A DNA stretch of 32,000 nucleotides from Fastidiosibacter lacustris. Lineage in GTDB: Bacteria > Pseudomonadota > Gammaproteobacteria > Francisellales > Francisellaceae. This document shows, piece by piece, positions 17,988 to 31,904 of the stretch. Positions within the stretch are counted from its first letter, which is position 1; every line of letters begins with the position of its first letter. Below the pieces are notes generated by a model that saw nothing but the letters and a program-made list of their open reading frames with translations, was not told the origin of the DNA and did no database searches. The stretch is taken from the NCBI RefSeq assembly GCF_003428155.1, contig NZ_QLIR01000006.1, forward strand, positions 1-32,000, read 5' to 3'. Both the position numbers and the translations under genes were made by a program.

Positions 17988-19159
17988 AAGTAATTACTGG
18001 TGGCTGGAAAATAATATCATTTATTGATCTTATGAAATTAAAAATCAATGAAGATACTGTAGTAATGACAGAAAATAATCATGATTTACTCGTTCATCTT
18101 AAGTCGTTGAACATATTTAAAGACGTGATTGGGTATGATGATTATTATAACAATAACAGCGTTTTGCGCGATATAGAACAACTGCATCAGCAACAAAACA
18201 TTACCGATATTATTCCTCTTTCTGAGGCGGATATATTACGGATGGCTGATTTGCGCGATAAGTTAAACATTCCTGGACAACGTTATAAAGAAGCTTTATT
18301 ACTTAGAAATAAACAGCACATGAAAGATAGAGCGGCAAGTTATGGTTTGCACACGGTAATTCCTAAACCAGTTAGCAAACTTGACTTCAATTATCCGTTT
18401 GTTTTAAAAAGTGAAGATGGGGTGGGTAGTTACAATACCTTTATTATCACCAGCAAAGATGACTACGAGAGAGTTAAACATCTCATTACAGACAATTATA
18501 TATTTGAACCATATATAGAAGGTGATATGTATATAATTGATGGTCTTGTATCAAGAGGTAAGGCAATCTATATTAATCCAGGCAGGTATATCGGGACCCC
18601 ACTTAATTTTGTTGGTGGCAATACACAGTCAGTGATGCCACTTTTTGAATATCATCCCTTTTATGATCAATTATTGAGTTATGGTAAAAATCTGGTTGAA
18701 AATGTTTACCCTATGCCCACGCATAGTTGGTTTCATATCGAAGTATTTGTCGATAAAAATGGCTATATAACGCTATGCGAGATTGCTTGCCGAGCTCCTG
18801 GGGTCAACATTCCATTTAACTATAAACTTTCACATGATACAGATATTAATGTTGAACATATTAATTTGCACTACATTCACAATTATGTATGCCCACCAAA
18901 AGTAATCAAAAATTATAAAGTGGGTTCTATGTTCGTTCCACCTAAAGAGGGAAAAATATTGGCTAAACCAAGGCTTCCAGATAGTCAAAATATTATTGAT
19001 ATTGTAGATATGCTAAAAGTGAATCATCAATATGAAAAAATGAAAATGAGTAATGATCCAATTTATAGAATAGTATTCAAAGCAAAGTCAGATCAAGAAT
19101 TTGACTTTATTGTATCAGAACTTAATGAGTGGGCTAGAAATTTGTTATGGGTCAACTAA
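17984..19159 (+). CDS. ATP-grasp domain ligase (carboxylate-amine ligase type), full length
   Basis: 391-aa ORF. Central-domain Lys in PFVLKSEDGVGS, hinge FEPYIEGDMYIIDG, C-terminal Mg-ATP site FHIEVFVDKNGYITLCEIACRAPG. Confidence 0.8.
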   Translation: MKVITGGWKIISFIDLMKLKINEDTVVMTENNHDLLVHLKSLNIFKDVIGYDDYYNNNSVLRDIEQLHQQQNITDIIPLSEADILRMADLRDKLNIPGQRYKEALLLRNKQHMKDRAASYGLHTVIPKPVSKLDFNYPFVLKSEDGVGSYNTFIITSKDDYERVKHLITDNYIFEPYIEGDMYIIDGLVSRGKAIYINPGRYIGTPLNFVGGNTQSVMPLFEYHPFYDQLLSYGKNLVENVYPMPTHSWFHIEVFVDKNGYITLCEIACRAPGVNIPFNYKLSHDTDINVEHINLHYIHNYVCPPKVIKNYKVGSMFVPPKEGKILAKPRLPDSQNIIDIVDMLKVNHQYEKMKMSNDPIYRIVFKAKSDQEFDFIVSELNEWARNLLWVN

Positions 19160-20344
19160 ATGTTGAAAATGTTTAGAATTATCCTTGATAATCGTGATTA
19201 TAGATACTTTTGGTTTGTTAATTTGGGAAGTAATACAGCTATATGGATGCAAACCATGCTGTTTGGTATTCTTGTATCGCAATTATCAAGTTCTGCATTA
19301 ACTAACTCATTAGTACACGTTGCTGCAACGCTTCCTTTCTTTTTACTATGTTTTATTGCTGGCATTATCGGGGACAGATTTAATCAATATTGGGTTATGT
19401 TAATTTGTCAATGTGCGCTTTCAATTACAGCAGTTGCATGTGCAACAATTGGTTATTTAGGTTTTTTTAACACATTTAATTTAATTGTTATTACGTTTAT
19501 TTTTGCAAGTATTATGAGTTTTAGAATGCCAACCTCAGTTGCATGTGTTGCTTCATTAGTCAGAGTTGATCAAGTTGCGTATGCCTCAGTTTTAAATAAC
19601 CTATGCTTTAATATTTCACGAAGTCTTGGACCTGCTTTAGTAGGAGTGTTATTACTGGTTGTCACTGCTCCTACTATATTTATTCTAAGCACAGTCATTT
19701 TTTTGTTGCCTGTAATTTACTTTTACAGATATAGAAAGAAAAAAAGCCTTACAGTTAGCAGAACCAAAAAACTAGAGGGAATAAGTCAATACATTAAGGA
19801 AAAATATTTCATTTATTGCTGTCTGGATATAATGATAATTATGTTTTCTTCTAGTGCAGTGTTAGCATTGTTACCCTACTTTGTGAAATATAATTTGGGT
19901 GGTGATGAAATTGCACAATCAAACTATATGGCTTGTATTGGATTAGGAGCATTTTCTACGATATTTGTTTTGCCTGTTTTGATTAAACGATTTTCTCGTC
20001 AACAGAATGTATTAATTTGTTATGGTTTAACCATATTTTCAACACTGTCATTTTTATTTTATAAATATGAAGATGAATGGGTAATTGCCATCAACTATTT
20101 TATATGTGGTCTTGCTTGGTCGATGTCAATATCGCTCATAAATGCAATGATTCAAGAACGTTATAGAGGGGAAATTGCAGCAAGGGTTATTGCTGTATAT
20201 TTTATGATGATGTACATAGGACAAGCGGCAGGAAGCTTGTTTTTTGGCGCGATATCTGAGTATTCAATGTTGCTGGCATTTGTAGTTGCATTAAGCATAC
20301 TGGTGCTGAGTATACTTACACGATATATTGGCGTTCGGATTTAA
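19160..20344 (+). CDS. MFS transporter, EntS-like (MFS_3 'transmembrane secretion effector' type) exporter
   Basis: 394-aa multi-TM ORF. It starts at the nucleotide after the ATP-grasp stop. N-terminal pattern RDYRYFWFVNLGSNTAIWMQTMLFGILV ... GIIGDRF matches the EntS/MFS_3 family pattern. Confidence 0.8.
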   Translation: MLKMFRIILDNRDYRYFWFVNLGSNTAIWMQTMLFGILVSQLSSSALTNSLVHVAATLPFFLLCFIAGIIGDRFNQYWVMLICQCALSITAVACATIGYLGFFNTFNLIVITFIFASIMSFRMPTSVACVASLVRVDQVAYASVLNNLCFNISRSLGPALVGVLLLVVTAPTIFILSTVIFLLPVIYFYRYRKKKSLTVSRTKKLEGISQYIKEKYFIYCCLDIMIIMFSSSAVLALLPYFVKYNLGGDEIAQSNYMACIGLGAFSTIFVLPVLIKRFSRQQNVLICYGLTIFSTLSFLFYKYEDEWVIAINYFICGLAWSMSISLINAMIQERYRGEIAARVIAVYFMMMYIGQAAGSLFFGAISEYSMLLAFVVALSILVLSILTRYIGVRI

Positions 20345-20537: not shown

Positions 20538-21530
20538 ATGAAAAAAGTACTTTTTATACATAACTCATCAAATGAAGATGATAAACAATTAGTTACAAAA
20601 TTAGGTTTTGACAGTCAAAAGCTTCAGACCATCGGGGTTGATTTTGTAAAAAAAAGTGATATGCAAATATGGACAACCGTAGGTGTAGAACGATTTGAAA
20701 CTATATCTCAATCCTATCTTCAAAATACAGCTTTACTTGTTTTTTCGCCTAATATATCCGTTCCCAATGCGGAAGAATATGCTAAAAAAAATTCAGTACC
20801 ATCCTTGCATTTACAAAAAGGTGATCAAAATCTTTCCGGAAATAATCTGATAGAGTTAATGCAAGAGGCGCTTGATCCATTAACAATACAAAAAAACTTA
20901 TCAAATTTTTTACTCAACAAGTCTTATCTAAGCAAAACACACAAAGGTGAACCTCTAATTAAAAACTCTGGACTAATCGCTACAAGTGTTTTGCCATTCC
21001 TAACAAGGCAATCTACTGATAAAAAAATGTTAGCGGAACTTCAAAAGAAAAACCATGAAATTTTAAAAAACGGATCACCAGCCAATAATATTGAACAAAA
21101 ATTAACCAATTTGCTGCAATTTATACACTCACATACTGCCGTGCCAGAAGAGGTCAATAGTCAGTTAAGCACATACACATATAAACTAGAACACGCTGGT
21201 CAAACGTATAATGTGCCATGGAGCGTAATGCAGGCTTACGATCCTAAATCAGCAGGCAATTACGACAGTACAATGGTAATAAACCGATTAAAACAAGATT
21301 TAGCAAAAGTCAATGCTAGTGACATTATTGCACAAAAACTTCTTTCGCCAATGTATGGTGTATTATGGAATAATAAACATGGAGTCTCTACAGAATATAT
21401 AGAAACTCTAAAATCTTCGAATGCACTTTATAAAGAGATAAAATACTCAGATAAAAAAGAAAGTAATAATCACTGTTTTACAATATTTTCAAAAAATAAT
21501 AATAACCAAAATATTGAAAACGTGTGTTAG
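20538..21530 (+). CDS. Hypothetical protein with degenerate Rab-like small-GTPase N-terminus (pseudo-GTPase) and unknown C-terminal region
   Basis: 330-aa ORF with RBS-like AGGAAAAAA upstream. Residues 3-69 align with Rab1-type GTPases: KVLFI(HNSSNEDD), TIGVDF (RabF1, exact), MQIWTTVGVERFETISQSY versus [19 protein letters not shown]. The P-loop GxxxxGKS and DTAGQ are not conserved. No similarity recognised for residues ~110-330. Confidence 0.7.
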   Translation: MKKVLFIHNSSNEDDKQLVTKLGFDSQKLQTIGVDFVKKSDMQIWTTVGVERFETISQSYLQNTALLVFSPNISVPNAEEYAKKNSVPSLHLQKGDQNLSGNNLIELMQEALDPLTIQKNLSNFLLNKSYLSKTHKGEPLIKNSGLIATSVLPFLTRQSTDKKMLAELQKKNHEILKNGSPANNIEQKLTNLLQFIHSHTAVPEEVNSQLSTYTYKLEHAGQTYNVPWSVMQAYDPKSAGNYDSTMVINRLKQDLAKVNASDIIAQKLLSPMYGVLWNNKHGVSTEYIETLKSSNALYKEIKYSDKKESNNHCFTIFSKNNNNQNIENVC

Positions 21531-21584: not shown

Positions 21585-22787
21585 TTAACTCATCCTCTTA
21601 GTGTTACTGATAATTGCCAAAATTAAACCTATTGCTGTTAAAATAGTACCAACCCAGTTAGGCGAGGTATAACCTAAACCAATTTGAATGGTAAAACCTC
21701 CTAGGAAAACGCCTAAAGCAGTTCCTAAATTAAATGCAGCAATGTTGGCTGCCGAAGCTAAGGTTGGTGCTCCCTCAGCTTTGTTTAGTATGTATTTTTG
21801 TAACGGTGAAACAAGTCCAAAACCAATCGCGCCTAATAAAAATAAAGTAATTGCCGCGGGAATTTTATAATGTGCAGTAAACACAAATATTCCGAGCAAA
21901 ATAGCTAAAGCCGTTAATAAACCATAAATAGTCGTTATCAACGCTTTGTCGGCAGCTCTACCTCCTAAAATATTCCCGATGACTAAGCCAACTCCATATA
22001 TTCCCAGCAGCCAACCTACAGCATAGGGAGTGTAGCCTGCAACATAGAGCATCATCGGCGCCACATAGGCAAAAGATGCCAGTAGTCCGCTAAACCCTAC
22101 CGCTGTGACCAACAATGCCATCCATACCTGTGGACGTTTAAAAACTGCCAACTCGTGTCTTAAACATGTTTTTGGAACAATCGTATGACTTGGAAGAAAT
22201 GCTAAGATACCTATTAAACCAATTACTCCTAATACTGAAATCACCCAAAATGATGAACGCCACCCAAAGTGTTGCCCTAATAACGTCCCCATTGGCACAC
22301 CTATCACATTCGCTAGAGTCAGTCCTGTGAACATTAATGCTATTGCTGTCGCGCTACGATTTGGTCCTACCATGCTTGCAACGACAACTGCTCCAATTCC
22401 AAAAAATGCCCCATGGCAAAATGCTGAGAGAAAGCGTCCAACCATAAGGATAGCAAATGTGGGTGCCAAGGCTGATACTATACTTCCTGTAATAAACAAG
22501 ACCATTAGGGATACGAGTACTTTTTTACGCGAGATATGAAGTGTTCCCGCTGTAAGTAATGGTCCTCCAATTCCAACGCCCAGTGCGTACCCTGATGTCA
22601 CAAACCCTGCAACAGGTATGGTAATATCAAAATCATTTGCTAAATTCGGCAATAATCCTGTCGTTACAAATTCTGTCGTTCCAATGGCAAAAGAACAAAT
22701 TGCCATCATTAACAAAGCCACACCAATTGAATATGATTCCATTTGTAAATCCTCTGATTGGGCTAACATTATTGTCGACTTTGACAT
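21585..22787 (-). CDS. MFS transporter (DHA1, sugar/purine-nucleoside efflux-like)
   Basis: 400-aa ORF, about 12 TM segments. GRFLSAFCHGAFFGIGAVV and FGWRSSFW are typical of the YdhP/AraJ/NepI-like group. Confidence 0.85.
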   Translation of the reverse strand: MSKSTIMLAQSEDLQMESYSIGVALLMMAICSFAIGTTEFVTTGLLPNLANDFDITIPVAGFVTSGYALGVGIGGPLLTAGTLHISRKKVLVSLMVLFITGSIVSALAPTFAILMVGRFLSAFCHGAFFGIGAVVVASMVGPNRSATAIALMFTGLTLANVIGVPMGTLLGQHFGWRSSFWVISVLGVIGLIGILAFLPSHTIVPKTCLRHELAVFKRPQVWMALLVTAVGFSGLLASFAYVAPMMLYVAGYTPYAVGWLLGIYGVGLVIGNILGGRAADKALITTIYGLLTALAILLGIFVFTAHYKIPAAITLFLLGAIGFGLVSPLQKYILNKAEGAPTLASAANIAAFNLGTALGVFLGGFTIQIGLGYTSPNWVGTILTAIGLILAIISNTKRMS

Positions 22788-22809
22788 GAATGACTCCTCT
22801 TTTAGTCAA

Positions 22810-23595
22810 TTACAAAAGTCCTCGAAGTACACCACCGTCTACACGCACAGCGGCACCAGTCGTTGCTGAAGCCTTATATGAGCATAAGTACACAACCATA
22901 TTTGCTACTTCTTCAGCTGAAGTCATGCGACCTAATAATGATGTCGATCTAGCCTGTTTTATAAACTCTCGGCTAGCTTCTTCGAGCGTAAGCGCTGGAT
23001 CTGGCACCATCTCACGAATAAACTTCTCAACACCTTCGCTTAACGTTGGACCGGGTAATACACTGTTGACAGTTACCCCATTGCCAGCCACCGTTTCAGC
23101 AAAACCTCGTGCAATTGCCAATTGCGCTGTTTTCGTCATGCCGTAATGCACCATTTCTGGCGGGATCTGTATGGCAGATTCGCTGGATATAAAAACTACA
23201 CGCCCCCACTGTTGCTCAATCATGTTAGGAATATAATGTCTTGACAGCCTGATACCGCTCATTACGTTAATAGCAAAAAATTTTTCCCATTCAGCATCGC
23301 TTATTTCAAACACAGGTTTTGGTTCAAAAACTCCTGTGTTGTTGATGAGTATGTCTACATGCGGAATTTTTGCGAAAAGTTTCTCACAGCCAGCTGAGGT
23401 GCCAACGTCTGCTGCAATACCACGAACGCGTTCTTGTGTAGAAAATAATGTTACTGCTGCTTCAACTCTTTTATCTGTACGACCATTGATAATAATATCA
23501 GCGCCAGCGTGATGAAGCGCTTTTGCAATAGCAAGTCCTATACCTGCTGTTGACCCGGTGATTAAAGCAATACGTCTGCTCAAGTCGATGATCAT
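22810..23595 (-). CDS. SDR-family oxidoreductase
   Basis: 261-aa ORF. TGSTAGIGLAIA (TGxxxGxG), NNTG, catalytic Ser...YGMTKTA (YxxxK). Confidence 0.9.
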   Translation of the reverse strand: MIIDLSRRIALITGSTAGIGLAIAKALHHAGADIIINGRTDKRVEAAVTLFSTQERVRGIAADVGTSAGCEKLFAKIPHVDILINNTGVFEPKPVFEISDAEWEKFFAINVMSGIRLSRHYIPNMIEQQWGRVVFISSESAIQIPPEMVHYGMTKTAQLAIARGFAETVAGNGVTVNSVLPGPTLSEGVEKFIREMVPDPALTLEEASREFIKQARSTSLLGRMTSAEEVANMVVYLCSYKASATTGAAVRVDGGVLRGLL

Positions 23596-23613
23596 AAAAT
23601 TTCTTCTCCTTAA

Positions 23614-24405
23614 TTAGTATACGACCGGTGTAATTCCACCATCCATGGTGAAATTCGCGCCAGAAATAAAATTAGCTAGATCAGAAGCTAAATAGAGTGC
23701 GAGATAGGCAACCTCTTCTGGTTTACCTAATCGACCAACTGGGATTTTTTGTGCTTCGACATATCTTTGTAATGCTGTCTCACGATCAACACCATATTGT
23801 CTTGCCAAGACATCTGCCAAACCACCCGCTTTATCATAAATTGCTGTTCGTATAAACCCAGGTGATAACACATTAGAACGAACTCCTCTAGCAGTAAATT
23901 CATTGGCGATTGTTTTTGATAGCATCGTAACCGCAGCCTTAGAAACGCTGTAATCAGGTAGTTTCGCATTAGGCATACGCCCAGCCTCAGAAGCCGTATG
24001 TAACAACACTCCTTTGCCTTGTTTCAACATATACGGAATTATGGCTCTTGATGCACGAACATAGCCTAATACGTTCAAATTTAGCGTGGTCAACCACTCT
24101 TCATCCGTAATATTCAAAAATCCAGATCGAGATCCAGCTATCCCCGCATTGTTAAACAATACATCGATTCTATTAAATTCTTTCACAACGTCATCAGTGA
24201 GTTTAGTGACCTGTATCTGATCTGTCATATCAACTTTCATGGGAATAATTTGCCCTAATGCGTGTAACTCATTTAACGCATCTGGATTAATATCTACGCC
24301 AATAACAATAGCACCTTCAGCAAGAAATGCTTTTGCCGAAGCGTAACCAATACCAGAACCAGCCCCAGTGATAATTACTACTTTATTTGTTAGATTAAAA
24401 TCCAT
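23614..24405 (-). CDS. SDR-family oxidoreductase
   Basis: 263-aa ORF. TGAGSGIGYASA, NNAGIAG, catalytic Ser...YSVSKAA (YxxxK). Confidence 0.9.
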   Translation of the reverse strand: MDFNLTNKVVIITGAGSGIGYASAKAFLAEGAIVIGVDINPDALNELHALGQIIPMKVDMTDQIQVTKLTDDVVKEFNRIDVLFNNAGIAGSRSGFLNITDEEWLTTLNLNVLGYVRASRAIIPYMLKQGKGVLLHTASEAGRMPNAKLPDYSVSKAAVTMLSKTIANEFTARGVRSNVLSPGFIRTAIYDKAGGLADVLARQYGVDRETALQRYVEAQKIPVGRLGKPEEVAYLALYLASDLANFISGANFTMDGGITPVVY

Positions 24406-25714
24406 TGTTCGATCCTTGAGCGTGAGTAATCATTTCATTATAGTGAACAACTATCTTGGCATTCTTGGCGACATAATAGTTAGGCGCAGAGTAAGCAATC
24501 GTTGCAAAATCAATTGTACCTCGATTTTTAAAGTCGCCAATTGCGATCCTTGCCACGGATTCATCGGATACCCGCCATTTAGCAAAGACCCCATTTTTTA
24601 TATCGATAGCTTTGTAGTAAAACACACCTTGCCACGGCCATGGACCGCGTAATCCAACCAAGAACTCATCGTCACCATCACCATCAAAATCAGCGCATAG
24701 CACTTGATGACCAGGACCTTCCCCATTTTCATTAGGATCGCCAAAAACATCTAATATTACCCTACTCCATTCAGCATCAGCACCTGGCTTACCATCTGAC
24801 TTGTAATAAACCGCAACTGTATTACCATGGAAAGGCTCAAGTGCAGCGACATACGCAAATGAGTCGTTTCCTATGCGTCCTACATCCATGTCACCTGAAC
24901 CTTTGAAAGATGTTCTTTCAAATTGTGTCAACTCACCAGTGCCAATAAGTTTGCATTGCCATTTTTTAATATTTTCATCGTAGTAAAGCCAAGTAACACC
25001 TTCATCTGAAGCAAGGATAATAGAGTCTAGATTAGAGTTTGGAATAAGCTCTGACTTTATTTCCGCACCATGAATCATTCTAAAACTACTGTGATTGATA
25101 GTTTGCATTGACCATTCTTTAGCAGTATGTACATCGTCAGGTTGTGTGAACATAACTACAGGAAGAACAGCATGTACACTTTCTCTGGCAACAATAGGAA
25201 ATCCCAGAATCTCCAGTCTGTCAGTCTGCGTGAAATGACCAATTCTTAAACGATGCATACCTGTTGTACGACCAACATAGTGTCGTTTCCAACGTTCTTT
25301 TACATCAGCATTTTGACCAGGATTCTCAATCCAATCAATCTTGCCACCTGAGGTATCTGCATCATGTATTGTGCCAACAGGACCATAAAGTTCATAGCAT
25401 ACCAGAATATCTGGATAGCCATTACCTGTTATATCAGCGTAAGCACCACCTACCGGCATTCTAATTTTGTCAACTACTAAATGTTTTTGCCAATCAGGAT
25501 TTTTATACCAGTAGATTTCACCTAAAGTCAAACCGTAGCCAAATAAGTCTATCTTACCGTCTTGGTTTATGTCTAAGGCTTCTAACCAATACCCATCACG
25601 CAAATTCTCTGCTACGATCTCTTTGGTAAATTTAGGCACAAAACCTGCTTTGGTTGCTTGATCGTTTAAAAACTTTGTAAAGTCACCTACTGTTTTATCC
25701 GTTAGTGTTGCCAT
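24395..25714 (-). CDS. Cytoplasmic FG-GAP/VCBS-repeat beta-propeller protein
   Basis: Asp-rich FG-GAP-type loops DINQDGKIDLFGYG, DITGNGYPDILV, CADFDGDGDDEFLVG, IGDFKNRGTIDFA. No signal peptide or TM segment. The ATG at 25714 (MATLTDK) has RBS GGAGAGGAG 8 nt upstream and is preferred over the ORF-track start at 25759. 11-nt overlap with the downstream SDR. Confidence 0.75.
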   Translation of the reverse strand: MATLTDKTVGDFTKFLNDQATKAGFVPKFTKEIVAENLRDGYWLEALDINQDGKIDLFGYGLTLGEIYWYKNPDWQKHLVVDKIRMPVGGAYADITGNGYPDILVCYELYGPVGTIHDADTSGGKIDWIENPGQNADVKERWKRHYVGRTTGMHRLRIGHFTQTDRLEILGFPIVARESVHAVLPVVMFTQPDDVHTAKEWSMQTINHSSFRMIHGAEIKSELIPNSNLDSIILASDEGVTWLYYDENIKKWQCKLIGTGELTQFERTSFKGSGDMDVGRIGNDSFAYVAALEPFHGNTVAVYYKSDGKPGADAEWSRVILDVFGDPNENGEGPGHQVLCADFDGDGDDEFLVGLRGPWPWQGVFYYKAIDIKNGVFAKWRVSDESVARIAIGDFKNRGTIDFATIAYSAPNYYVAKNAKIVVHYNEMITHAQGSNNGF

Positions 25715-25770
25715 TACTTTTTCTCCTCTCCTACTATCTGAATTATTTGAATTCTTCACTACAGCTATAT

Positions 25771-26925
25771 CTATGCTACGCAGTATTGGGTATTTTTGAT
25801 CCCCCCCTCTAGAAGTGATAACACACGCTCTTCAGCCGTGAAAATAGAAGTTAACTTTGATGAGAAAACATGAATAAACCTGTTATGACGTGACTTATCA
25901 CAAAACACCAATAATGGACGAGTGTCACTAAGGTCTCTTACTTTTGTTTTCAGTGCCAAAATATGGTCGATTACTTCAAACTCATCCAAAAAGTGCGGAT
26001 AGAATTTGGCTATGTCCTCAATGATATTATCTGTAACTTCTCTGAGCTGTTTTAATGGCAATCCTTTGTGCAAAGCTTTTCGAGCTTCATCGATATCATT
26101 AAACTGTTGATAACTGGTATATTGAACATGGAATATCTGAAAGAGCTGATGATCTCGATATTTTCTATACTGAAGTGGAATATCTGCATAACCATATGGC
26201 TCTAAGCTTGGATATGTACCATCAAATATTCCAAAGCTTTCGTATGTACGTTCAGTTTTTAATTGCTTAGTTGCCACCAGCAGTGAAAAACATAAATCAA
26301 AATAGTGCTGGTGTTTGCCAGAAATGTACTGAAATGCTTGATTATACGTACAGTTAATAACAAAGTCATAGGGTGTATTATCTACCTGAATTAATTCATC
26401 ATCCAACACTTTCAAATCGTTGACGCGTCTATTTAATTTCAGTCGAACGTTACTTTCATTCAGTGCTCTTTTAAACCAAGCTTTTGCTTTATCAACCAAC
26501 AATATAGCCTCATGCACTCGGAAACCACCTTCAACGTTGGCAAAACCTAGTTCAGTTAGCTGAGAGAATGTGAGTTCTTCAATTTCCAATCCGGTACCCT
26601 TCATAATTGTTTTCATAGTTTTATAATCAATTAGGGTTTTATCATCATTTGCCACACAAAATATTTTTGAGTTGTGTGAAGCATAACTAACTAAATTTGG
26701 ATAATGAGCGATGAATCTTGCTTCATCAATCTTGCACATTTCTCTCGTAACTCCTGAGCGAGGGTAGTGATATCCTTTATGAATTCGGTAAGAATTATGT
26801 GTGGATGCTCCAGAAAAAATATCATCCGCCATGTCATATAAATCTATTGAAAATCCTTTCGCCCTTAAGGAAAGCGCTAAATGACAGCCATATATTCCAG
26901 CACCAATAATTGCCATTCTCATCAT
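25771..26925 (-). CDS. FAD-dependent oxidoreductase (DAO-like)
   Basis: 384-aa ORF. N-terminal MRMAIIGAGIYGCHLALSL ... DLYD dinucleotide fold, then GASTHNSYRIHKGYHY. RBS GGAGGA 5 nt upstream. Confidence 0.8.
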   Translation of the reverse strand: MMRMAIIGAGIYGCHLALSLRAKGFSIDLYDMADDIFSGASTHNSYRIHKGYHYPRSGVTREMCKIDEARFIAHYPNLVSYASHNSKIFCVANDDKTLIDYKTMKTIMKGTGLEIEELTFSQLTELGFANVEGGFRVHEAILLVDKAKAWFKRALNESNVRLKLNRRVNDLKVLDDELIQVDNTPYDFVINCTYNQAFQYISGKHQHYFDLCFSLLVATKQLKTERTYESFGIFDGTYPSLEPYGYADIPLQYRKYRDHQLFQIFHVQYTSYQQFNDIDEARKALHKGLPLKQLREVTDNIIEDIAKFYPHFLDEFEVIDHILALKTKVRDLSDTRPLLVFCDKSRHNRFIHVFSSKLTSIFTAEERVLSLLEGGIKNTQYCVA

Positions 26926-27258
26926 AACAGTCCTCCATAAACTTGATCAAAGGTTTACTATTTGTCTGTTTTAAATTGTAACACTTAGATTTAGGTCGCA
27001 ATCACATAATACATCAATTCTCTCTCCTGTAGTTATAACTCCTATCTTAATATATCGTTTGAGTAGCGCTTTCTCCCATATTGGATAATCGCTTAGTTAA
27101 CAACAATCTTAATTATAATCAAGCGACAAAGATGAGTACTATTTGTTAGAAATTTTATTGCAAAGAATTTACTTAATCATCAGTGAAAAAAATTATATCT
27201 TTACGGTGGTATTTTGTTGTTATTATATTGTTATCTGGATTTTTTTGGATCGTATATT

Positions 27259-27471
27259 ATGAACTTGGAACACAGAATTCTAATCGCTTTATTTAAAAAG
27301 CGAACAATGTCATTGAGTGAATTAAGAAGAAGTTTTCATAGAGTGAAACTCTCTGATAGAGATGTTGCACTGAGTACTTTACATGAGCAAGGATATATAA
27401 TTTGCGAACGCAGTCTAAGCAAAACGAGTAGCAAGATCATAACCATTTACAGAATATCTAATATGTATTAG
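27259..27471 (+). CDS. Small (70-aa) possible winged-helix DNA-binding protein
   Basis: The first ATG of the 27214 (TTG) ORF is at 27259. RILIALFKKRTMSLSELRRSF ... LHEQGYIICE ... ITIYRIS resembles a MarR/PadR-like wHTH. Weak RBS and no family recognised. Confidence 0.35.
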   Translation: MNLEHRILIALFKKRTMSLSELRRSFHRVKLSDRDVALSTLHEQGYIICERSLSKTSSKIITIYRISNMY

Positions 27472-27490
27472 TCTAGATATAATCTGACAT

Positions 27491-28204
27491 TCATCTTGAC
27501 TTAGATGAGGTTGCCTGTTTTGTATATTTAAACATATTGACCACATGATGCAGACCATTGCTACTCACTACATCGACTACATATTCGTCACCATAAATAA
27601 GCTTTTGAACCAAAACTTCTTGATTTATGTTGCCAGAATAATCAACTTTACCTAATAAGTTCTCACAGGCAGTTCTAATTTCATTTTCATTATGACAAAA
27701 ATGAACACCTTCCGTGCCAAATGACATTATTGGTTTGACAACAATGTCTGTTAACTTTTGAGTTTTTATCCACTCAAGTATTTGATCAATAGATGATGAT
27801 TTAAAAGATGGAATATGGCAAATACCGTCATTCCGTAGCTGTTCCATCATCAGATATTTATCTCTTCTTGCACGACTCTTTTTCACATCATTAGGTGACA
27901 GATTCCAGCAATTGGATAATACGTCAAATACAAGTACACCAGGCTCTGAGCCACAGACAATGTATTCTGGCGGACCTCCAAGCACACGTTCAATTTCAAT
28001 TATCATTTCATCAATAGAGTCATTTAGCGTAAAAATCTCTGTAAAATCAGTCTTCCTAAGACCTGATAAAAGAAGCTGTGGTAATTTTGTATTTGTGATT
28101 AACGCCAAACAATTGTAGCCATATTTCTGTTTGATTCTTTCGGAAAATTGTGCCCCACTTGAAAATGGGTCTACTATGAGTACTGTTGGTCTGATAGAAG
28201 ACAT
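27491..28204 (-). CDS. ATP-grasp protein, N-terminal + central domains only (C-terminally truncated?)
   Basis: Pre-ATP-grasp and central domain features: TVLIVDPFSSG, RRDKYLMMEQL, IVVKPIMSFGTEGV, LVQKLIYGDEYVVDV. It stops after about 237 aa with no Mg-ATP E-x-N/R motif. The ATG at 28204 (MSSIRP) has RBS GAGAGG and lies 4 nt after the MFS stop; it is preferred over the ORF-track start at 28249. Confidence 0.65.
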   Translation of the reverse strand: MSSIRPTVLIVDPFSSGAQFSERIKQKYGYNCLALITNTKLPQLLLSGLRKTDFTEIFTLNDSIDEMIIEIERVLGGPPEYIVCGSEPGVLVFDVLSNCWNLSPNDVKKSRARRDKYLMMEQLRNDGICHIPSFKSSSIDQILEWIKTQKLTDIVVKPIMSFGTEGVHFCHNENEIRTACENLLGKVDYSGNINQEVLVQKLIYGDEYVVDVVSSNGLHHVVNMFKYTKQATSSKSR

Positions 28205-28208
28205 GGCA

Positions 28209-29405
28209 TTACCTCTCAACTTGATTTGTTTGTTCTTTCTCTTTGACAAAATACAATGCTATCGCACCACACAATGCCATAATTGCAGAATAGATTAGCG
28301 CTTTTGCCCAATCTTGGTTTTGAAATAACTCACCGTAAATCATCGCAGCAAAAGCCCCACCAAGATAGAATGACAATTGCCTAATACTGGAAGAGATTAA
28401 TATACGATTATTATCAAAGCCAGAGATTGTTAATGTGTCGAGCAATGGCATCAATGCGTAATTAAGTATCAAACGCCCAAAATAAAGAGAGATGAACACA
28501 GCAAATGGTAATAATAATGACTGTAAAAGTAACACTGAAAAGGTTATCACCCCAATTAGCAACAATATTCTTTTAAGGTTGTATTTTTTGACGAGAACAG
28601 GTGCACACAAAGCACCGAATATACTAACTATTTTATCTAAACCAAGCACTGCAGAAGCCTCGGTCACATCTAACGAATATGCCTGGTTGAATAAAATATT
28701 GGCAAATCTAAAAACCAAAGTAATAGATCCACCCAATAAAAACGCTGCGATAAATAGCATTAATAAATTACGCCATTCCAAAGCATTCGGAGTATTGCCA
28801 AATGCCGTTTTATCTTCTAATTCTCTAACACCATTAACAGAATGAAAGCGAACAAACACCATAAGCAGCGCAGATAGAGATGCCACCAATAAAACACCGC
28901 AGTAGTTATACTGTGGTTCAAATGGAGAGTATTTAGTTACTATTACAACAATAAATGAGGCTAGCATTGCAGCGCCCAGGTAAAAAACAAAAAAGTAGCT
29001 GAACATTTTTGTTTTATTATCACCTGCATGTGCGCCAAACAATGAATTACCCGTTGATAAGACTGCTATCATTCCTGATAATATCAATCCTAGGGCTATA
29101 GAGTTTGAATTAACAGTGGTACAAAATGGCAAAGCCAGAAATGAAATGGCATATACAATTGACGATATCAATAATAATTTTTTTACTGAAATCTTTCTAC
29201 TCGCGATCATTAGAGGGACTACCGCCGCAGACATCATAAACATAGAAAAAGCGTAAATTTGTCCAGTACCTACTTTGTCAATGTTGTTTGCCTCTAAATA
29301 GAAATTATAAACTGCATCAAACAGACCATTACTGAATCCCATAACCCCTGTTGCTAGCAAAAACAATTGTACCGGTCTATCAAAGGTAAAAAATAATTTA
29401 ACCAT
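28209..29405 (-). CDS. MFS transporter
   Basis: 398-aa ORF with about 12 hydrophobic segments. AGGAA RBS upstream. Embedded in the AurF-like operon. Confidence 0.8.
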   Translation of the reverse strand: MVKLFFTFDRPVQLFLLATGVMGFSNGLFDAVYNFYLEANNIDKVGTGQIYAFSMFMMSAAVVPLMIASRKISVKKLLLISSIVYAISFLALPFCTTVNSNSIALGLILSGMIAVLSTGNSLFGAHAGDNKTKMFSYFFVFYLGAAMLASFIVVIVTKYSPFEPQYNYCGVLLVASLSALLMVFVRFHSVNGVRELEDKTAFGNTPNALEWRNLLMLFIAAFLLGGSITLVFRFANILFNQAYSLDVTEASAVLGLDKIVSIFGALCAPVLVKKYNLKRILLLIGVITFSVLLLQSLLLPFAVFISLYFGRLILNYALMPLLDTLTISGFDNNRILISSSIRQLSFYLGGAFAAMIYGELFQNQDWAKALIYSAIMALCGAIALYFVKEKEQTNQVER

Positions 29406-29439
29406 CGCAGCAATTCCTAATTATTTACATTTATAAGTG

Positions 29440-30006
29440 TCAGATTTTGTATCCATTTTTTGCCTCAAGATTGTTACCTGAGAGTGTGACAATCAGCTGC
29501 TCTCCCATCAGCCATTCTCCATATCCTGCTGCAGTATTAATGTGCCCTGCATTTTCAATCATCACAGAATCAGAACCCCATGCCTTTGAAAAAACCAAGG
29601 CTCTATCTACAGACAGATATTCATCATTATTGCTATAAACAACAGTCGAATTGAATGATAACTTCTTCAAGGGAATTGGTCCTTGAATTTTAATTTCATT
29701 TGGAGCATGACTTGATTCAACGTCAGCTGGAGCAACCAGTAGTGCCCCAGTCACCCGTGAATTGGTATACTTCGCTGCCCATTGAGCAATAGTGATCGCG
29801 CCACAACTATGACCAACAAGAAACATCTCACTGGAGACTGATTCAATCGTTTTTTGTAGACCATCAATCCATTTATCGCGCACTGGACTTTCCCAGTTTT
29901 CTTGCTCGATGCGGACTACGTTTTTGTATTTTTTCTCTATGATCGATTGCCAATGCTCAGGTCCTGAATTCGTATATCCTGGAACAATGATGATCGTTGT
30001 TGTCAT
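29440..30006 (-). CDS. Small alpha/beta serine hydrolase (YdeN/RBBP9-like)
   Basis: 188-aa ORF. N-terminus TIIIVPGYTNSGPEHWQS, nucleophile elbow LVGHSCG, C-terminal ENAGHIN (His). The start overlaps the upstream stop (ATGA at 30003-30006). Confidence 0.75.
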   Translation of the reverse strand: MTTTIIIVPGYTNSGPEHWQSIIEKKYKNVVRIEQENWESPVRDKWIDGLQKTIESVSSEMFLVGHSCGAITIAQWAAKYTNSRVTGALLVAPADVESSHAPNEIKIQGPIPLKKLSFNSTVVYSNNDEYLSVDRALVFSKAWGSDSVMIENAGHINTAAGYGEWLMGEQLIVTLSGNNLEAKNGYKI

Positions 30007-30818
30007 AATGCGTTACTCCTCATTGTTTCTAATTGGTTTATTGTTAAATTTATACCAAATTTGTTTTTAATTAAGCAAAAGATATCTTCTTCACTATCTA
30101 TATCTTGTGTACTAATAAGGGTGTCTTTTACTTCAGTATATGTTTTATTACGAATGCTTATTCTGCCATTTTTTGTTGGTAAGCTTGCTACTCGATTTGT
30201 TTTCAATAGACTCTTATTTGATGTCATTGTGTAATGGTATGCCATTTCAATATCTTCTGATGTTGCTAAGTGATCATAAAAACTGTAGATCACCTCCCAA
30301 TCAGCGTCAGGTTTGATGTTTTCTTTTATAGATACAATCCATCCATAAATATTATTTTTTTGGATTTTAGTTGAATGAAATGAATACTCCGCGACTGTAC
30401 CATGTTTTAGTAAGATCGGCATTCTTGGACCCTTGGCACCGAAGCCAATATCAAATAACCAGTTTTGACCTTCCAGTTCAACAATGAAAATTTGATGCGT
30501 AGCAGGAGTTAAAACTGGCGTATGGACTCTTGCCAGATATTTCCTGTATTTAAAACCAATTTCATCAAATGCATTTGCCATAAGCATACAAGTTTCAAAG
30601 CAAAGTCCGCCTTTCTTTTGCCTTATTATTCTGTCACTAATGAAGTCGTGATTTAAGCCAAATTTTTGATTAAATTGCATTTCAAAATTTTCGAATGGCA
30701 CATTATAAATGTGTGCTTTATGCAGCATAAATAGCCCTTCTTTATTGGCTTCAATTGGCTGATTAATATTTATTCTTTCTAAATACTGCTTTATGTTAAA
30801 AATCACAACCATCTCCAA
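30003..30818 (-). CDS. Arylamine N-acetyltransferase (NAT) family protein
   Basis: 271-aa ORF. The Cys-His-Asp triad sits in NAT context: KKGGLCFE (Cys), ATHQIFIVEL (His), WLFDIGFG (Asp, 15 residues after His). The ORF-track start at 30818 is TTG and abuts the upstream stop; an alternative ATG lies at 30812. Confidence 0.8.
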   Translation of the reverse strand: MEMVVIFNIKQYLERININQPIEANKEGLFMLHKAHIYNVPFENFEMQFNQKFGLNHDFISDRIIRQKKGGLCFETCMLMANAFDEIGFKYRKYLARVHTPVLTPATHQIFIVELEGQNWLFDIGFGAKGPRMPILLKHGTVAEYSFHSTKIQKNNIYGWIVSIKENIKPDADWEVIYSFYDHLATSEDIEMAYHYTMTSNKSLLKTNRVASLPTKNGRISIRNKTYTEVKDTLISTQDIDSEEDIFCLIKNKFGINLTINQLETMRSNAL

Positions 30819-31904
30819 CTAATGTATTATTTCCAGATCATTCTTATGAAAATAGGACGCGATATCGCAGCCCAATCCCTCAGCAAGCTTGACAGGTCCA
30901 CTATAGTCAATAGTGTCAATCTGCTTTGTTTCTAGTTCGCTAATTTCACTAAGCATTTCCCTGTGGTTTGGAAAATTAATTTCATTCAGGACGAATCCCC
31001 ACAATCGCAACTCTTTGGAGGCAAACCATCTGATCGCACAAGGTAGCATGCTTAAGTAATATTCTTGTTGCTCTTTACTCAAGTTTGGGAATATTTTTTT
31101 CATGATTCCCGTGAATAAATTCGCGTGAGCAAGCTCATCTTTGCGGTGTGCGTCTATGGTCATTCTGCAGAAACTATTTATGCTCATATCTTTTGATAAG
31201 ACATCAAGGTACGAACTTATTAATGTTTCTGAAACACTTGCAGTTGCCAATCTGAGAAGCATGTTTTTTTGTTGATCATTTTGTTCGTTTATAACTTTTT
31301 TCTGTGAAAAAATTAAATCGTATTCTGGCAGAACAATTTTTCCCAAATTTCTTTCAACAGAGACTATGTTGCAGGCATTAACCGCCATGAGTGTGTGATA
31401 AGTCTCATCAACATAGGTTTCAGAAGCAATCTTCTTTGACAGGTAGTCTGTTGCCCCAGGGATTTTTTCTAGTATTATTGCTTCTAATACCGGATTGATG
31501 ATTTCTACTTCTATATGTATTGTTTTTTGATTATAAATAATCCATGCCCATGATAGGACATGTGACTTAAATTCCTTAGATGCGCTCTGCCAATGTGGGT
31601 GGTGATAGAAAGGTAGCAGTGTTTCATTGTAATCCTCTTTTCCATTATCGAAACATGCTTGGTAAGCATCATTGCTCTTGTCATTTTTAACTACAGCTCG
31701 TTTTTCCCAATGCTTTGAAAGCATATATAACGTCTTTTCAATGATATTTGCTGTTGGTGAATTACGATTATTCTGAGAACTCCCCATTTCTTCTATATCC
31801 CTTTTGTTTTCTGGGTTTAAGAGGAGTGCTTCATCACCCTCTATCCCAGTATTTGCCATGCTTGTGAGTATTCTTGGAGAGTTTTCAGAACTATTGTTCG
31901 ACAT
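30819..31904 (-). CDS. AurF/CmlI-like diiron arylamine N-oxygenase
   Basis: 361-aa ORF. Carboxylate/His ligand pattern: E (HIEVE), 35 residues on ExxH (DETYH), 59 residues on E (SVSETL), 27 residues on HxxxExxH (DAHRKDELAH). This reproduces the seven-ligand spacing I recall for AurF (E101, E136, H139, E196, H223, E227, H230). RBS GAGG upstream. Confidence 0.75.
   Translation of the reverse strand: MSNNSSENSPRILTSMANTGIEGDEALLLNPENKRDIEEMGSSQNNRNSPTANIIEKTLYMLSKHWEKRAVVKNDKSNDAYQACFDNGKEDYNETLLPFYHHPHWQSASKEFKSHVLSWAWIIYNQKTIHIEVEIINPVLEAIILEKIPGATDYLSKKIASETYVDETYHTLMAVNACNIVSVERNLGKIVLPEYDLIFSQKKVINEQNDQQKNMLLRLATASVSETLISSYLDVLSKDMSINSFCRMTIDAHRKDELAHANLFTGIMKKIFPNLSKEQQEYYLSMLPCAIRWFASKELRLWGFVLNEINFPNHREMLSEISELETKQIDTIDYSGPVKLAEGLGCDIASYFHKNDLEIIH

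What the first reader, a model, noticed from the sequence alone, without database searches (positions are those of the whole stretch)
27491..31904. Compact AurF-like N-oxygenase / arylamine N-acetyltransferase / serine hydrolase / MFS / ATP-grasp operon: candidate undescribed N-oxygenated arylamine (nitro-aryl or aryl-hydroxamate) pathway
Seen: five co-directional minus-strand ORFs with essentially no intergenic space. The TAG of the first abuts the next start, there is an ATGA overlap at 30003-30006, and the remaining gaps are 34 nt and 4 nt. ORF1 has the E / ExxH / E / HxxxExxH ligand set with AurF-like spacing, including the extra third His that distinguishes N-oxygenases from ordinary diiron enzymes. 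ORF2 has an NAT Cys-His-Asp triad in the correct context. ORF3 is a GHSCG serine hydrolase, ORF4 an MFS and ORF5 an ATP-grasp.
Established: AurF/CmlI enzymes oxidise aryl amines stepwise to hydroxylamine, nitroso and nitro. NATs acetylate arylamines and N-hydroxy-arylamines. N-hydroxylation plus N-acylation is the chemical logic of hydroxamates. ATP-grasp ligases form amide bonds without NRPS machinery.
Inference: an NRPS/PKS-independent route that makes and exports an N-oxygenated and/or N-acetylated aromatic amine, possibly amino-acid conjugated. The product could be a metallophore, a signal or a toxin. I know of no characterised cluster with this exact gene combination, and none from an intracellular-type AT-rich gammaproteobacterium.
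Basis: partly seen in the sequence, partly recalled or inferred. Interest (0 to 1): 0.85.

Follow-up and report, generated by a model that had tools for sequence, protein, structure and literature searches.

The report
Decayed relative of PNP-2 antibiotic cluster
The five genes are real, but they are a rearranged and partly broken relative of an antibiotic gene cluster already known from Pantoea (PNP-2, product structure unreported in what I read), so this is not an undescribed pathway.

Summary
All five minus-strand ORFs, their tight junctions and the catalytic motifs are present as described. The window comes from Fastidiosibacter lacustris.

Three points change the interpretation.
1. ORF5 is only the 5' half of an ATP-grasp L-amino-acid ligase. 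It matches residues 1-230 of 429, and the catalytic C-terminal half is absent from the window.
2. The gene set is not unprecedented. NAT, Ser-hydrolase, MFS, diiron oxygenase and ATP-grasp, plus a ferredoxin reductase, form the six-gene PNP-2 cluster (pnp2A-F) of Pantoea agglomerans. [quoted passage not shown] No structure for its broad-spectrum antibiotic is given in the papers I could read. The window proteins are 44-54% identical to the Pantoea/Serratia NAT, hydrolase and MFS. Gene order differs (D-A-B-C-F'), and no reductase gene is found.
3. The oxygenase has all seven AurF-type ligands. However, it groups with homologues that sit beside glutamine amidotransferases or asparagine synthetases (a DnfA/TsnB7-like context), not with AurF/CmlI. 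An arylamine substrate is therefore unsupported.

Verdict: a divergent, decaying PNP-2-like cluster, of moderate-to-low interest.

The parts
30819..31904 (-). ORF1: ferritin-like diiron oxygenase of the AurF family (PF11583), the counterpart of pnp2D. It is 361 aa from ATG 31904, which has a GAGG ribosome-binding motif; NCBI annotates 346 aa.
   Evidence: Pfam 8e-43. Best solved-structure matches are CmlI 5hyg (2.4e-39) and AurF 3chh (8e-30), with all seven ligands aligned. E132, E167, H170, E226, H253, E257 and H260 are invariant across 18 homologues. It is 63% identical to the L001 orthologue but only 32-34% to Pantoea/Serratia Pnp2D-type proteins and 24% to the Streptomyces cluster oxygenase.
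30003..30818 (-). ORF2: arylamine N-acetyltransferase-family protein, the counterpart of pnp2A. The probable true start is GTG 30806.
   Evidence: Pfam PF00797 3.5e-44. Best solved-structure match is Salmonella N-hydroxyarylamine O-acetyltransferase 1e2t (6e-20). The Cys73-His108-Asp123 triad is conserved. It is 44-47% identical to the Pantoea/Serratia cluster NAT and 40% to the Streptomyces one. NCBI names it 'arylamine N-acetyltransferase family protein [Fastidiosibacter lacustris]'.
29440..30006 (-). ORF3: small alpha/beta serine hydrolase of the YdeN/RBBP9 family, the counterpart of pnp2B. Its start overlaps the ORF2 stop (ATGA).
   Evidence: Pfam PF06821 1.7e-55. The only solved relative is 3bdv, an 'uncharacterized protein DUF1234' (3.7e-25). 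The GHSCG, NNDEY and AGHIN motifs are present. It is 49% identical to the Pantoea/Serratia protein.
28209..29405 (-). ORF4: MFS transporter, presumed exporter, the counterpart of pnp2C.
   Evidence: Pfam MFS_1 5.4e-21. It is 53-54% identical over 387 aa to the Pantoea/Serratia cluster MFS and 71% to the L001 orthologue.
27491..28204 (-). ORF5: 5' remnant (237 aa from ATG 28204) of an ATP-grasp L-amino-acid ligase, the counterpart of pnp2F. The C-terminal catalytic half is missing.
   Evidence: It aligns to residues 1-230 of the 429-aa L001 orthologue (66.5% identity) and to residues 6-230 of the 419-aa Pantoea protein. Homology ends at 27515 ('KYTKQ'), followed by 7 unrelated codons and TGA. 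The full-length orthologue matches NCBIfam PRK07206 (2.8e-88), dapdiamide A synthase DdaF (3e-50) and the PDB 'L-amino acid ligase' 30vh (8.6e-47).
26926..27490 (.). AT-rich (30% GC) stretch that replaces the 3' half of the ligase gene. It carries a small plus-strand ORF (27214-27471) and marks the downstream boundary of the cluster.
   Evidence: No residual similarity to the ligase in any frame. No IS-like repeats. The small ORF has only a sub-threshold match to the ORF80 DNA-binding family (1.4e-4, 21.7 bits against a cut-off of 95) and no Pfam or PHROG hit.

Best explanation
Window 27491-31904 is a divergent, partly decayed relative of the PNP-2 antibiotic biosynthetic gene cluster (pnp2A-F of Pantoea agglomerans Tx10).

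Shown here:
- A conserved four-gene core (NAT-like acyltransferase, small serine hydrolase, MFS transporter, ATP-grasp L-amino-acid ligase) travels together with a PF11583 diiron oxygenase.
- This association occurs in Fastidiosibacter, an uncultured relative, many Enterobacterales and actinomycetes.

The version in this window differs in three ways:
- The oxygenase gene comes first (order D-A-B-C-F').
- No dedicated ferredoxin-reductase gene (pnp2E) is present.
- The ligase gene is cut to its N-terminal 55%.

Inferred mechanism for the intact system:
1. The diiron enzyme N-oxygenates a small carboxylate-bearing amine or amide precursor. It draws electrons from Pnp2E or from a housekeeping reductase.
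2. The NAT-family enzyme transfers an acyl group to the N- or N-OH function. This either forms a hydroxamate-type group or protects the warhead.
3. The ligase adds an amino acid, giving a peptide-like 'Trojan horse' compound.
4. The serine hydrolase trims or deprotects the product.
5. The MFS protein exports it.

Inferred for F. lacustris: because the ligase lacks its catalytic C-terminal domain, the pathway is most likely non-functional, or at best stops before the ligation step.
For: Source organism: ORF1 and ORF2 are 100% identical to F. lacustris proteins.

Conservation of the gene set:
- The same five genes occur in the same order, with a full-length 429-aa ligase, on two metagenome contigs (63-71% identity).
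- NAT homologues at 40-50% identity sit in NAT-hydrolase-MFS-AurF-Fer2-ATP-grasp clusters in Pantoea and Serratia, and in AurF-Fer2-NAT-hydrolase-MFS-ATP-grasp in Streptomyces.
- In the metagenome scan, all 11 loci whose NAT is at least 43% identical carry those partners as far as the contig reaches. NATs at 32% identity or below have none.

Identification as PNP-2:
- The Pantoea six-gene block on plasmid pCFSAN047154_1 spans 5,785 bp.
- The literature gives PNP-2 as six genes and 5,784 bp, lists strain CFSAN047154 as a carrier, and describes Pnp2A as a NAT homologue and pnp2E as a ferredoxin reductase. [quoted passage not shown]

Ligase truncation.

Reductase dispensability: no reductase homologue is found in the window. 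Naturally truncated pnp2E is reported in Proteus and seen in L048, so a dedicated reductase may not be required.
Against: - The Tx10 reference sequence (MN329808.1) and the Robinson et al. 2020 paper were not available to me. The link therefore runs through strain CFSAN047154 and secondary citations.
- The oxygenase is only 31-34% identical to the Pantoea/Serratia one. It was never its sister in 200 NJ bootstrap replicates, so that component may not be orthologous.
- Gene order differs and pnp2E is absent. By the criteria of the 2024 Pantoea survey (all genes present and syntenic), this would not count as a PNP-2 cluster.
- The window ends 96 nt upstream of ORF1, so a reductase or regulator just beyond it cannot be excluded.
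- No structure for PNP-2 is given in the papers I could read, so every chemical step above is inference.
- The truncation could in principle be an assembly artefact.
Confidence: 0.8

Rival explanations
1. One reading: a complete, functional and previously undescribed five-gene pathway. It would oxidise an arylamine such as PABA to hydroxylamino, nitroso or nitro forms, N-acetylate it, couple it to an amino acid and export it.
For: All seven AurF-type ligands are present, including the extra His typical of N-oxygenases (PMC13061610). The NAT triad is intact, and the closest solved relative is an N-hydroxyarylamine O-acetyltransferase. A basic residue (K127) occupies the position of AurF Arg96; that Arg96 binds the PABA carboxylate is from my own knowledge of the AurF structure, and the alignment is.
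Against: The ligase is truncated. The gene combination is already published as PNP-2. ORF1 is closer to homologues linked to amidotransferases and asparagine synthetases than to AurF/CmlI. It scores 109 bits against a 620-bit cut-off for the NCBIfam AurF model. No arylamine-forming genes lie in or beside any version of the cluster.
Confidence: 0.07
2. A mobile xenobiotic-detoxification or resistance cassette, not a biosynthetic cluster. The NAT would acetylate toxic aromatic amines or hydrazines, the hydrolase and oxygenase would modify them, and the MFS would pump them out.
For: Bacterial NATs are classically detoxifying enzymes (PMC11213898, abstract). The Enterobacterales copies lie in low-GC islands next to integrases, umuC and Tn7-like tniABQ genes.
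Against: [quoted passage not shown] A DdaF-like L-amino-acid ligase is conserved in the intact versions examined and has no obvious role in detoxification.
Confidence: 0.05
3. The four intact genes still work in F. lacustris and make and export an unligated N-oxygenated or N-acylated small molecule. The missing ligase step would be dispensable, or supplied in trans, for example by the distant ATP-grasp-like ORF at 17984-19159.
For: ORF1-ORF4 have intact reading frames, intact catalytic residues and preserved translational coupling. A second ATP-grasp-like ORF coupled to an MFS gene lies 8 kb away. Cluster GC equals window GC (0.361 against 0.362), which suggests long residence.
Against: The second ATP-grasp is only about 25% identical over 134 residues, with sub-threshold Pfam scores. 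A related lineage (L043/L044) has lost the 5' third of the oxygenase gene, including the first ligand Glu, so this cluster type appears to be decaying. The closest relative of F. lacustris described in the literature is an obligate ciliate endosymbiont (PMC9837558 abstract).
Confidence: 0.15

Closest known systems
PNP-2 (Pantoea Natural Product 2) biosynthetic gene cluster, pnp2A-F, P. agglomerans Tx10 (GenBank MN329808.1; Robinson et al. 2020, Microbiol Res 237:126479, known here through PMC11213898, PMC11350110 and PMC7744662)
   Same: The same protein families are present: NAT homologue, YdeN-type serine hydrolase, MFS transporter, PF11583 diiron oxygenase and DdaF-like ATP-grasp ligase. 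The NAT-hydrolase-MFS block is collinear and tightly packed. Identity is 44-54% for these three proteins, and 50-52% for the ligase of the uncultured relative.
   Different: The oxygenase gene is first instead of fourth, is only 31-34% identical, and is not the sister of Pnp2D in the tree. No pnp2E ferredoxin reductase is present. The ligase is truncated to 237 aa. The host is a Thiotrichales bacterium, not one of the Enterobacterales. Antibiotic production is untested.
AurF / CmlI arylamine N-oxygenases (aureothin and chloramphenicol pathways)
   Same: Same Pfam family and the same 4-Glu/3-His diiron ligand set. These are the best matches among solved structures.
   Different: Only 27-29% identity. 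They fall outside the group containing ORF1 in 137 of 200 NJ bootstraps. ORF1 is far below the NCBIfam AurF cut-off. The genomic context contains no PABA or p-aminophenylalanine pathway.
DnfA/DnfB/DnfC (Alcaligenes 'dirammox') and TsnB7/TsnB9 (trichostatin hydroxamate formation): AurF-family enzymes reported to N-hydroxylate the amide of glutamine
   Same: The closest homologues of ORF1 outside its own cluster type (32-42% identity) are flanked by a class-I glutamine amidotransferase in 23 of 31 loci. A Fer2/FAD reductase is present in 10 of 31, and an asparagine synthetase in 5 of 31. This is the gene company described for DnfABC and TsnB7/B9 (PMC11160463).
   Different: No amidotransferase or asparagine synthetase is present in the window cluster. 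I could not obtain reference DnfA or TsnB7 sequences, so the relationship rests on gene context only.
L-amino-acid-ligase 'Trojan-horse' antibiotic clusters (dapdiamide ddaA-I with DdaF, bacilysin, tabtoxin)
   Same: A small NRPS-independent cluster with a DdaF-like ATP-grasp ligase (3e-50 to the NCBIfam DdaF model for the full-length orthologue) and a dedicated MFS exporter.
   Different: The warhead chemistry is different and unknown. The ligase in this window is a fragment. The comparison of pathway logic rests on my own knowledge of these systems, not on a test made here.

Membership tests
PNP-2 biosynthetic gene cluster (pnp2A-F) | pnp2A: NAT-family gene | tested here: met
   ORF2 is 44-47% identical over about 260 aa to the Pantoea/Serratia cluster NAT. 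Pnp2A is described as a NAT homologue.
PNP-2 biosynthetic gene cluster (pnp2A-F) | pnp2B alpha/beta hydrolase and pnp2C MFS immediately downstream of pnp2A | tested here: met
   ORF3 is 49% and ORF4 is 53-54% identical to the Pantoea/Serratia proteins. Order and tight spacing are the same.
PNP-2 biosynthetic gene cluster (pnp2A-F) | pnp2D diiron oxygenase, orthologous and in fourth position | tested here: inconclusive
   Same Pfam family and ligands, but 31-34% identity, a different position in the operon, and never sister to Pnp2D-type sequences in 200 NJ bootstraps.
PNP-2 biosynthetic gene cluster (pnp2A-F) | pnp2E ferredoxin-reductase gene | tested here: not met
   tblastn with the Pantoea, Serratia and Streptomyces reductases finds nothing credible in the window (best E = 0.034). 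The L001 relative also lacks it. Caveat: the window ends 96 nt upstream of ORF1. pnp2E is also naturally truncated in Proteus and in L048.
PNP-2 biosynthetic gene cluster (pnp2A-F) | pnp2F full-length ATP-grasp ligase | tested here: not met
   Only residues 1-230 of about 420-430 are encoded.
PNP-2 biosynthetic gene cluster (pnp2A-F) | Production of the broad-spectrum antibiotic | not testable with these tools
   Needs culture overlays or heterologous expression.
AurF/CmlI-type arylamine N-oxygenase | PF11583 fold with E, ExxH, E, HxxxExxH (seven ligands) | tested here: met
AurF/CmlI-type arylamine N-oxygenase | Groups with characterised arylamine oxygenases and not with other PF11583 branches | tested here: not met
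   27-29% identity to AurF/CmlI against 32-42% to amidotransferase-linked homologues. AurF and CmlI fall outside the group. 109 bits against the 620-bit cut-off for NCBIfam diiron_AurF. The tree is a rough NJ tree and lacks DnfA and TsnB7 references.
AurF/CmlI-type arylamine N-oxygenase | Oxidises an aryl amine to nitro | not testable with these tools
   Needs an enzyme assay.
Arylamine N-acetyltransferase (NAT, PF00797) | NAT fold with Cys-His-Asp triad | tested here: met
   Pfam 3.5e-44. C73/H108/D123 align to the Salmonella NhoA triad.
Arylamine N-acetyltransferase (NAT, PF00797) | Acetyl-CoA-dependent acetylation of arylamines or N-hydroxyarylamines (as opposed to amide-synthase or other acyl transfer) | not testable with these tools
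   Solved relatives include both true NATs and amide synthases such as GdmF. The acceptor is unknown.
ATP-grasp L-amino-acid ligase (DdaF / PRK07206 type) | Complete three-domain ATP-grasp including the C-terminal catalytic domain | tested here: not met
   ORF5 stops at profile position 230 of 416 and at position 88 of 160 of the Pfam ATP-grasp_4 model. The full-length orthologue covers positions 3-409.
DnfA/TsnB7-type amide N-hydroxylase system | Adjacent glutamine amidotransferase or asparagine-synthetase partner | tested here: not met
   None in the window cluster or in L001. Such partners are present only next to the more distant homologues.

The most novel reading that the evidence does not exclude
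The Fastidiosibacter-type clusters (oxygenase-NAT-hydrolase-MFS-ligase, with no reductase) would be a distinct low-GC lineage of the PNP-2 family. In this reading, the variable diiron oxygenase was drawn from the branch linked to glutamine-amide N-hydroxylases. The family would then make a hydroxamate-type (N-hydroxy/N-acyl) amino-acid antimetabolite, not a nitro-aryl compound. In F. lacustris the four intact genes would still produce and export the unligated warhead.
Probability: 0.12. Interest if true: 0.55.

Novelty: new variant of a known kind. Interest (0 to 1): 0.3.

Why it matters
PNP-2 is a broad-spectrum antibiotic. No structure or mechanism for it is given in the papers I could read, and standard genome-mining tools miss its cluster.

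The nucleotide-level survey of 2024 found the cluster only in Enterobacterales. The protein-level comparison here places relatives in Thiotrichales (this window plus two uncultured lineages) and in Streptomyces, Kitasatospora and Lentzea. It also separates two layers of the cluster:
- a conserved core of NAT, hydrolase, MFS and ligase;
- a diiron oxygenase that has been exchanged or has diverged fast, and a reductase that can be absent.

That may help anyone trying to solve the PNP-2 structure or define a detection rule for this cluster class. The copy in this window is probably a dying one, so it is of little use as a source of the compound.

Tried and rejected
- Exact-sequence look-ups of the window's own ORF1, of the NCBI versions of ORF1 and of the NAT found no contig on record. 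I could therefore not see beyond the window's end.
- The single genome-contig scan, run with an oxygenase alignment, returned 31 loci. None carried the NAT, hydrolase, MFS or ligase. For a while this wrongly suggested that the cluster was nearly unique. The NAT search was what revealed the conserved cluster.
- The third homology search, with an 18-sequence oxygenase alignment, did not retrieve an Alcaligenes DnfA or a labelled TsnB7. The DnfA-like placement therefore remains a context-based inference.
- Literature searches combining AurF, ATP-grasp, N-acetyltransferase, N-oxygenase and Pantoea found nothing relevant. The diazo/Dob3 paper concerns an unrelated cluster. The link to PNP-2 came from 'Pantoea' plus 'arylamine'. 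The primary PNP-2 paper is not held.
- The PHROG scan of the small ORF and the repeat search around the truncation point gave no sign of a mobile element. The promoter and terminator scan found fewer promoter-like sites than in shuffled sequence and nothing informative.
- UGA read-through would not rescue ORF5, because a TAG follows five codons later.

Full report
**What is in the sequence**

The region 27491-31904 carries five co-directional minus-strand ORFs. Pfam assigns them as follows:
- ORF1: AurF family PF11583, E = 8e-43.
- ORF2: arylamine N-acetyltransferase PF00797, 3.5e-44.
- ORF3: Ser_hydrolase PF06821, 1.7e-55.
- ORF4: MFS_1, 5e-21.
- ORF5: ATP-grasp_4 and ATP-grasp_3, 1e-8.

There is an ATGA overlap at 30003-30006, a 34-nt gap and a 4-nt gap, each preceded by a Shine-Dalgarno-like motif. 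One refinement applies. ORF2 most likely starts at GTG 30806, which has GGAG 6 nt upstream and matches the orthologue's N-terminus and NCBI's 267-aa product. This leaves 12 nt after the ORF1 stop.

The catalytic residues are present:
- ORF1 carries E132, E167/H170, E226 and H253/E257/H260. These align with the seven AurF ligands.
- The NAT has Cys73-His108-Asp123.
- ORF3 has GHSCG.

The window is from Fastidiosibacter lacustris (Thiotrichales). ORF1 and ORF2 are 100% identical to proteins of that species.

**The ATP-grasp gene is a fragment**

ORF5 reaches only position 88 of 160 of the Pfam ATP-grasp_4 model and position 230 of 416 of NCBIfam PRK07206. A metagenome contig (L001/L002) carries the same five genes in the same order at 63-71% identity, and its ligase is 429 aa long.

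The window matches residues 1-230 of that protein. Homology stops at about 27515 ('KYTKQ'). Seven unrelated codons and a TGA follow. No frame downstream and no other part of the window encodes the C-terminal half. Reading through the TGA would not help, because a TAG follows five codons later.

The replaced stretch (26926-27490) has 30% GC and holds only a small opposite-strand ORF with no credible family match. I saw no IS-like repeats there.

The full-length orthologue is an L-amino-acid ligase. It matches PRK07206 at 2.8e-88, DdaF at 3e-50 and the PDB 'L-amino acid ligase' entry at 8.6e-47. The part missing in this window includes the catalytic C-terminal domain.

**The cluster is conserved, and it is known**

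Searching with the oxygenase alone gave few close relatives. The 31 genome loci it found had none of the other four genes.

Searching with the NAT was decisive. Homologues at 40-50% identity occur in Pantoea agglomerans, Serratia marcescens, Xenorhabdus, Ewingella, Enterobacter, Providencia and Streptomyces. All five homologues whose surroundings I read lie in clusters with the same partners:
- NAT, Ser_hydrolase, MFS, AurF, Fer2-reductase, ATP-grasp in Enterobacterales.
- AurF, Fer2, NAT, Ser_hydrolase, MFS, ATP-grasp in Streptomyces.

In a metagenome scan, all 11 loci with a NAT at least 43% identical had these partners as far as the contig reached. NATs at 32% identity or below had none.

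Identities between the window proteins and the Pantoea/Serratia (and, after the slash, Streptomyces) proteins are as follows:

| Protein | Pantoea/Serratia | Streptomyces |
|---|---|---|
| NAT | 44-47% | 40% |
| Hydrolase | 49% | 43% |
| MFS | 53-54% | 44% |
| Ligase (L001 copy) | 50-52% | 40% |

The Pantoea six-gene block on plasmid pCFSAN047154_1 spans 5,785 bp and carries only generic annotation. The literature identifies it:
- A 2024 survey of microbial NAT genes states that the NAT on these P. agglomerans plasmids matches Pnp2A. [quoted passage not shown]
- A 2024 survey of Pantoea antibiotic clusters lists PNP-2 (P. agglomerans Tx10, MN329808.1) as six genes and 5,784 bp. It names pnp2E a predicted ferredoxin reductase. 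It lists CFSAN047153 and CFSAN047154 as carriers. It reports 148 strains in six Enterobacterales genera, and a cluster GC of 41.9% against a genome GC of 54.6% (PMC11350110).
[quoted passage not shown] None of the papers I could read gives a structure for PNP-2. The primary paper (Robinson et al. 2020) is not held.

**How the window's version differs**

- Gene order is oxygenase-NAT-hydrolase-MFS-ligase, not A-B-C-D-E-F.
- No reductase gene is found in the window or in L001. The window ends only 96 nt upstream of ORF1, however.
- A dedicated reductase may be dispensable. pnp2E is truncated in Proteus and in metagenome locus L048.
- The cluster's GC (0.361) equals that of the window (0.362), so it does not look like a recent import.
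- A third lineage (L043/L044, 51-70% identity) has the same oxygenase-NAT-hydrolase order. There the oxygenase gene has lost its first ~137 codons, including the first ligand Glu. This cluster type thus shows decay in two of three lineages. That fits the host-associated biology reported for the F. lacustris / 'Ca. Nebulobacter' group (PMC9837558 abstract).

**What the oxygenase is likely to do**

ORF1 is a genuine seven-ligand ferritin-like diiron oxygenase, but it is not close to the arylamine enzymes:
- It is 27-29% identical to AurF and CmlI. It is 32-42% identical to a set of homologues from Motilimonas, Colwellia, Shewanella, cyanobacteria and Burkholderiales.
- It scores 109 bits against the 620-bit cut-off of the NCBIfam AurF model.

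The conserved neighbours of those closer homologues are:
- a class-I glutamine amidotransferase in 23 of 31 loci;
- a Fer2/FAD reductase in 10 of 31;
- MOSC and MarR proteins;
- in five loci, an asparagine synthetase.

That is the gene company reported for DnfA/B/C and for TsnB7/TsnB9. In those systems, AurF-family enzymes N-hydroxylate the amide of glutamine (PMC11160463).

In a neighbour-joining tree, ORF1 plus its L001 orthologue and the Pantoea/Serratia Pnp2D-type proteins both fall inside this group. AurF, CmlI and the very divergent Streptomyces cluster oxygenase lie outside it (137 of 200 bootstraps). ORF1 was never sister to Pnp2D (0 of 200). Pnp2D joined the marine amidotransferase/reductase-linked group in 151 of 200.

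So the oxygenase is the variable component of an otherwise conserved cluster, and an arylamine substrate is not indicated. This placement is provisional. I had no DnfA or TsnB7 reference sequence, and the tree is a simple distance tree.

**Most likely mechanism**

Shown: gene content, conservation, intact catalytic residues in ORF1-ORF3, and the truncation of ORF5. From the literature: the homologous Pantoea cluster is an antibiotic gene cluster that has been expressed in E. coli.

Inferred:
1. The diiron enzyme N-oxygenates a small amine or amide that probably bears a carboxylate. The invariant Lys127 sits where AurF has Arg96. That Arg96 binds the substrate carboxylate is my own recollection of the AurF structure.
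2. The NAT-family enzyme acylates the N or N-OH group.
3. The ligase adds an amino acid.
4. The hydrolase trims or deprotects. Its only solved relative is an uncharacterised DUF1234 protein.
5. The MFS protein exports the product.

The acetylate-ligate-deacetylate-export order is an analogy with bialaphos and other Trojan-horse peptide pathways, taken from my own knowledge and not tested here.

In F. lacustris the ligase step is lost. The cluster is therefore probably inactive or makes only an unligated intermediate.

**Verdict**

It is wrong on novelty, on completeness and probably on the substrate class.

The finding is a new, rearranged and decaying variant of a known but chemically unsolved antibiotic cluster family. 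Its modest value is comparative. It extends PNP-2-like clusters beyond Enterobacterales and defines their conserved core.

Noticed in passing
window 17984-20344 (+): A 391-aa ORF with weak, sub-threshold ATP-grasp matches (ATP-grasp_4 E=5e-5, 23 bits; about 25% identity to the PNP-2-type ligase over 134 aa). Its stop abuts the start of an MFS_3 'transmembrane secretion effector' transporter at 19160-20344. This may be a second ligase-plus-exporter pair.
   Followed up: partly
window 27214-27471 (+): A small ORF (70-85 aa) lies in the AT-rich stretch that replaces the 3' half of the ligase gene. Its only match is a sub-threshold hit to the ORF80 leucine-zipper DNA-binding family (1.4e-4, 21.7 bits against a cut-off of 95). 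It has no Pfam or PHROG hit.
   Followed up: partly
L043 2574-3248 and L044 1880-2554: In a third uncultured relative, the oxygenase gene of the same oxygenase-NAT-hydrolase cluster is 5'-truncated. Homology begins at ORF1 residue 138, so the first ligand Glu is missing. The gene sits directly downstream of tsf-pyrH-frr-uppS.
   Followed up: partly
L048 11521-11808: A metagenome PNP-2 cluster retains only the first ~94 of 321 residues of the ferredoxin-reductase gene pnp2E, between intact pnp2D and pnp2F. This matches the truncation reported for Proteus.
   Followed up: no
L045 1-3867; L038 16777-19880: PNP-2 clusters in Enterobacterales lie next to Tn7-like tniA/tniB/tniQ genes, or next to tyrosine integrases and umuC. 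This fits the horizontal spread reported in the literature.
   Followed up: no
L012/L021 (Motilimonas), L009-L013, L031-L032 and others, within about 6 kb of position 10000: A widespread, apparently uncharacterised gene set: an AurF-like diiron oxygenase with a Fer2/FAD reductase, a class-I glutamine amidotransferase (sometimes fused to AhpC/TSA), a ~450-aa protein with no Pfam match, MarR, MOSC/YiiM and sometimes flavohaemoglobin. It resembles dnfABC and may handle hydroxylamine or N-hydroxy compounds.
   Followed up: partly
window 21585-26925 (-): A separate minus-strand gene row downstream of the cluster: MFS transporter, two short-chain dehydrogenases, a protein with the aldos-2-ulose dehydratase beta-propeller domain (PF22301, 1.2e-55) and FG-GAP repeats, and a DAO-type FAD oxidoreductase. 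It may be a sugar or anhydro-sugar catabolic operon. It is absent next to the L001 cluster.
   Followed up: no
window 7189-8739 (+): An AbgT-family transporter (PF03806, 1e-198; the p-aminobenzoyl-glutamate / sulfonamide-efflux family) lies about 20 kb from the cluster. There is no evidence of a link.
   Followed up: no
window 20538-21530 (+): A 330-aa ORF with only weak Ras/Roc small-GTPase matches (E about 1e-4, at or below Pfam cut-offs). If real, this would be a eukaryote-like domain in a relative of ciliate endosymbionts.
   Followed up: no
window 9923-10906 (+): The release factor 2 (prfB) ORF starts at profile position 11 of the PCRF domain and is followed by lysS. The short N-terminal part is probably in another frame, as in the usual programmed +1 frameshift. 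I did not check this.
   Followed up: no
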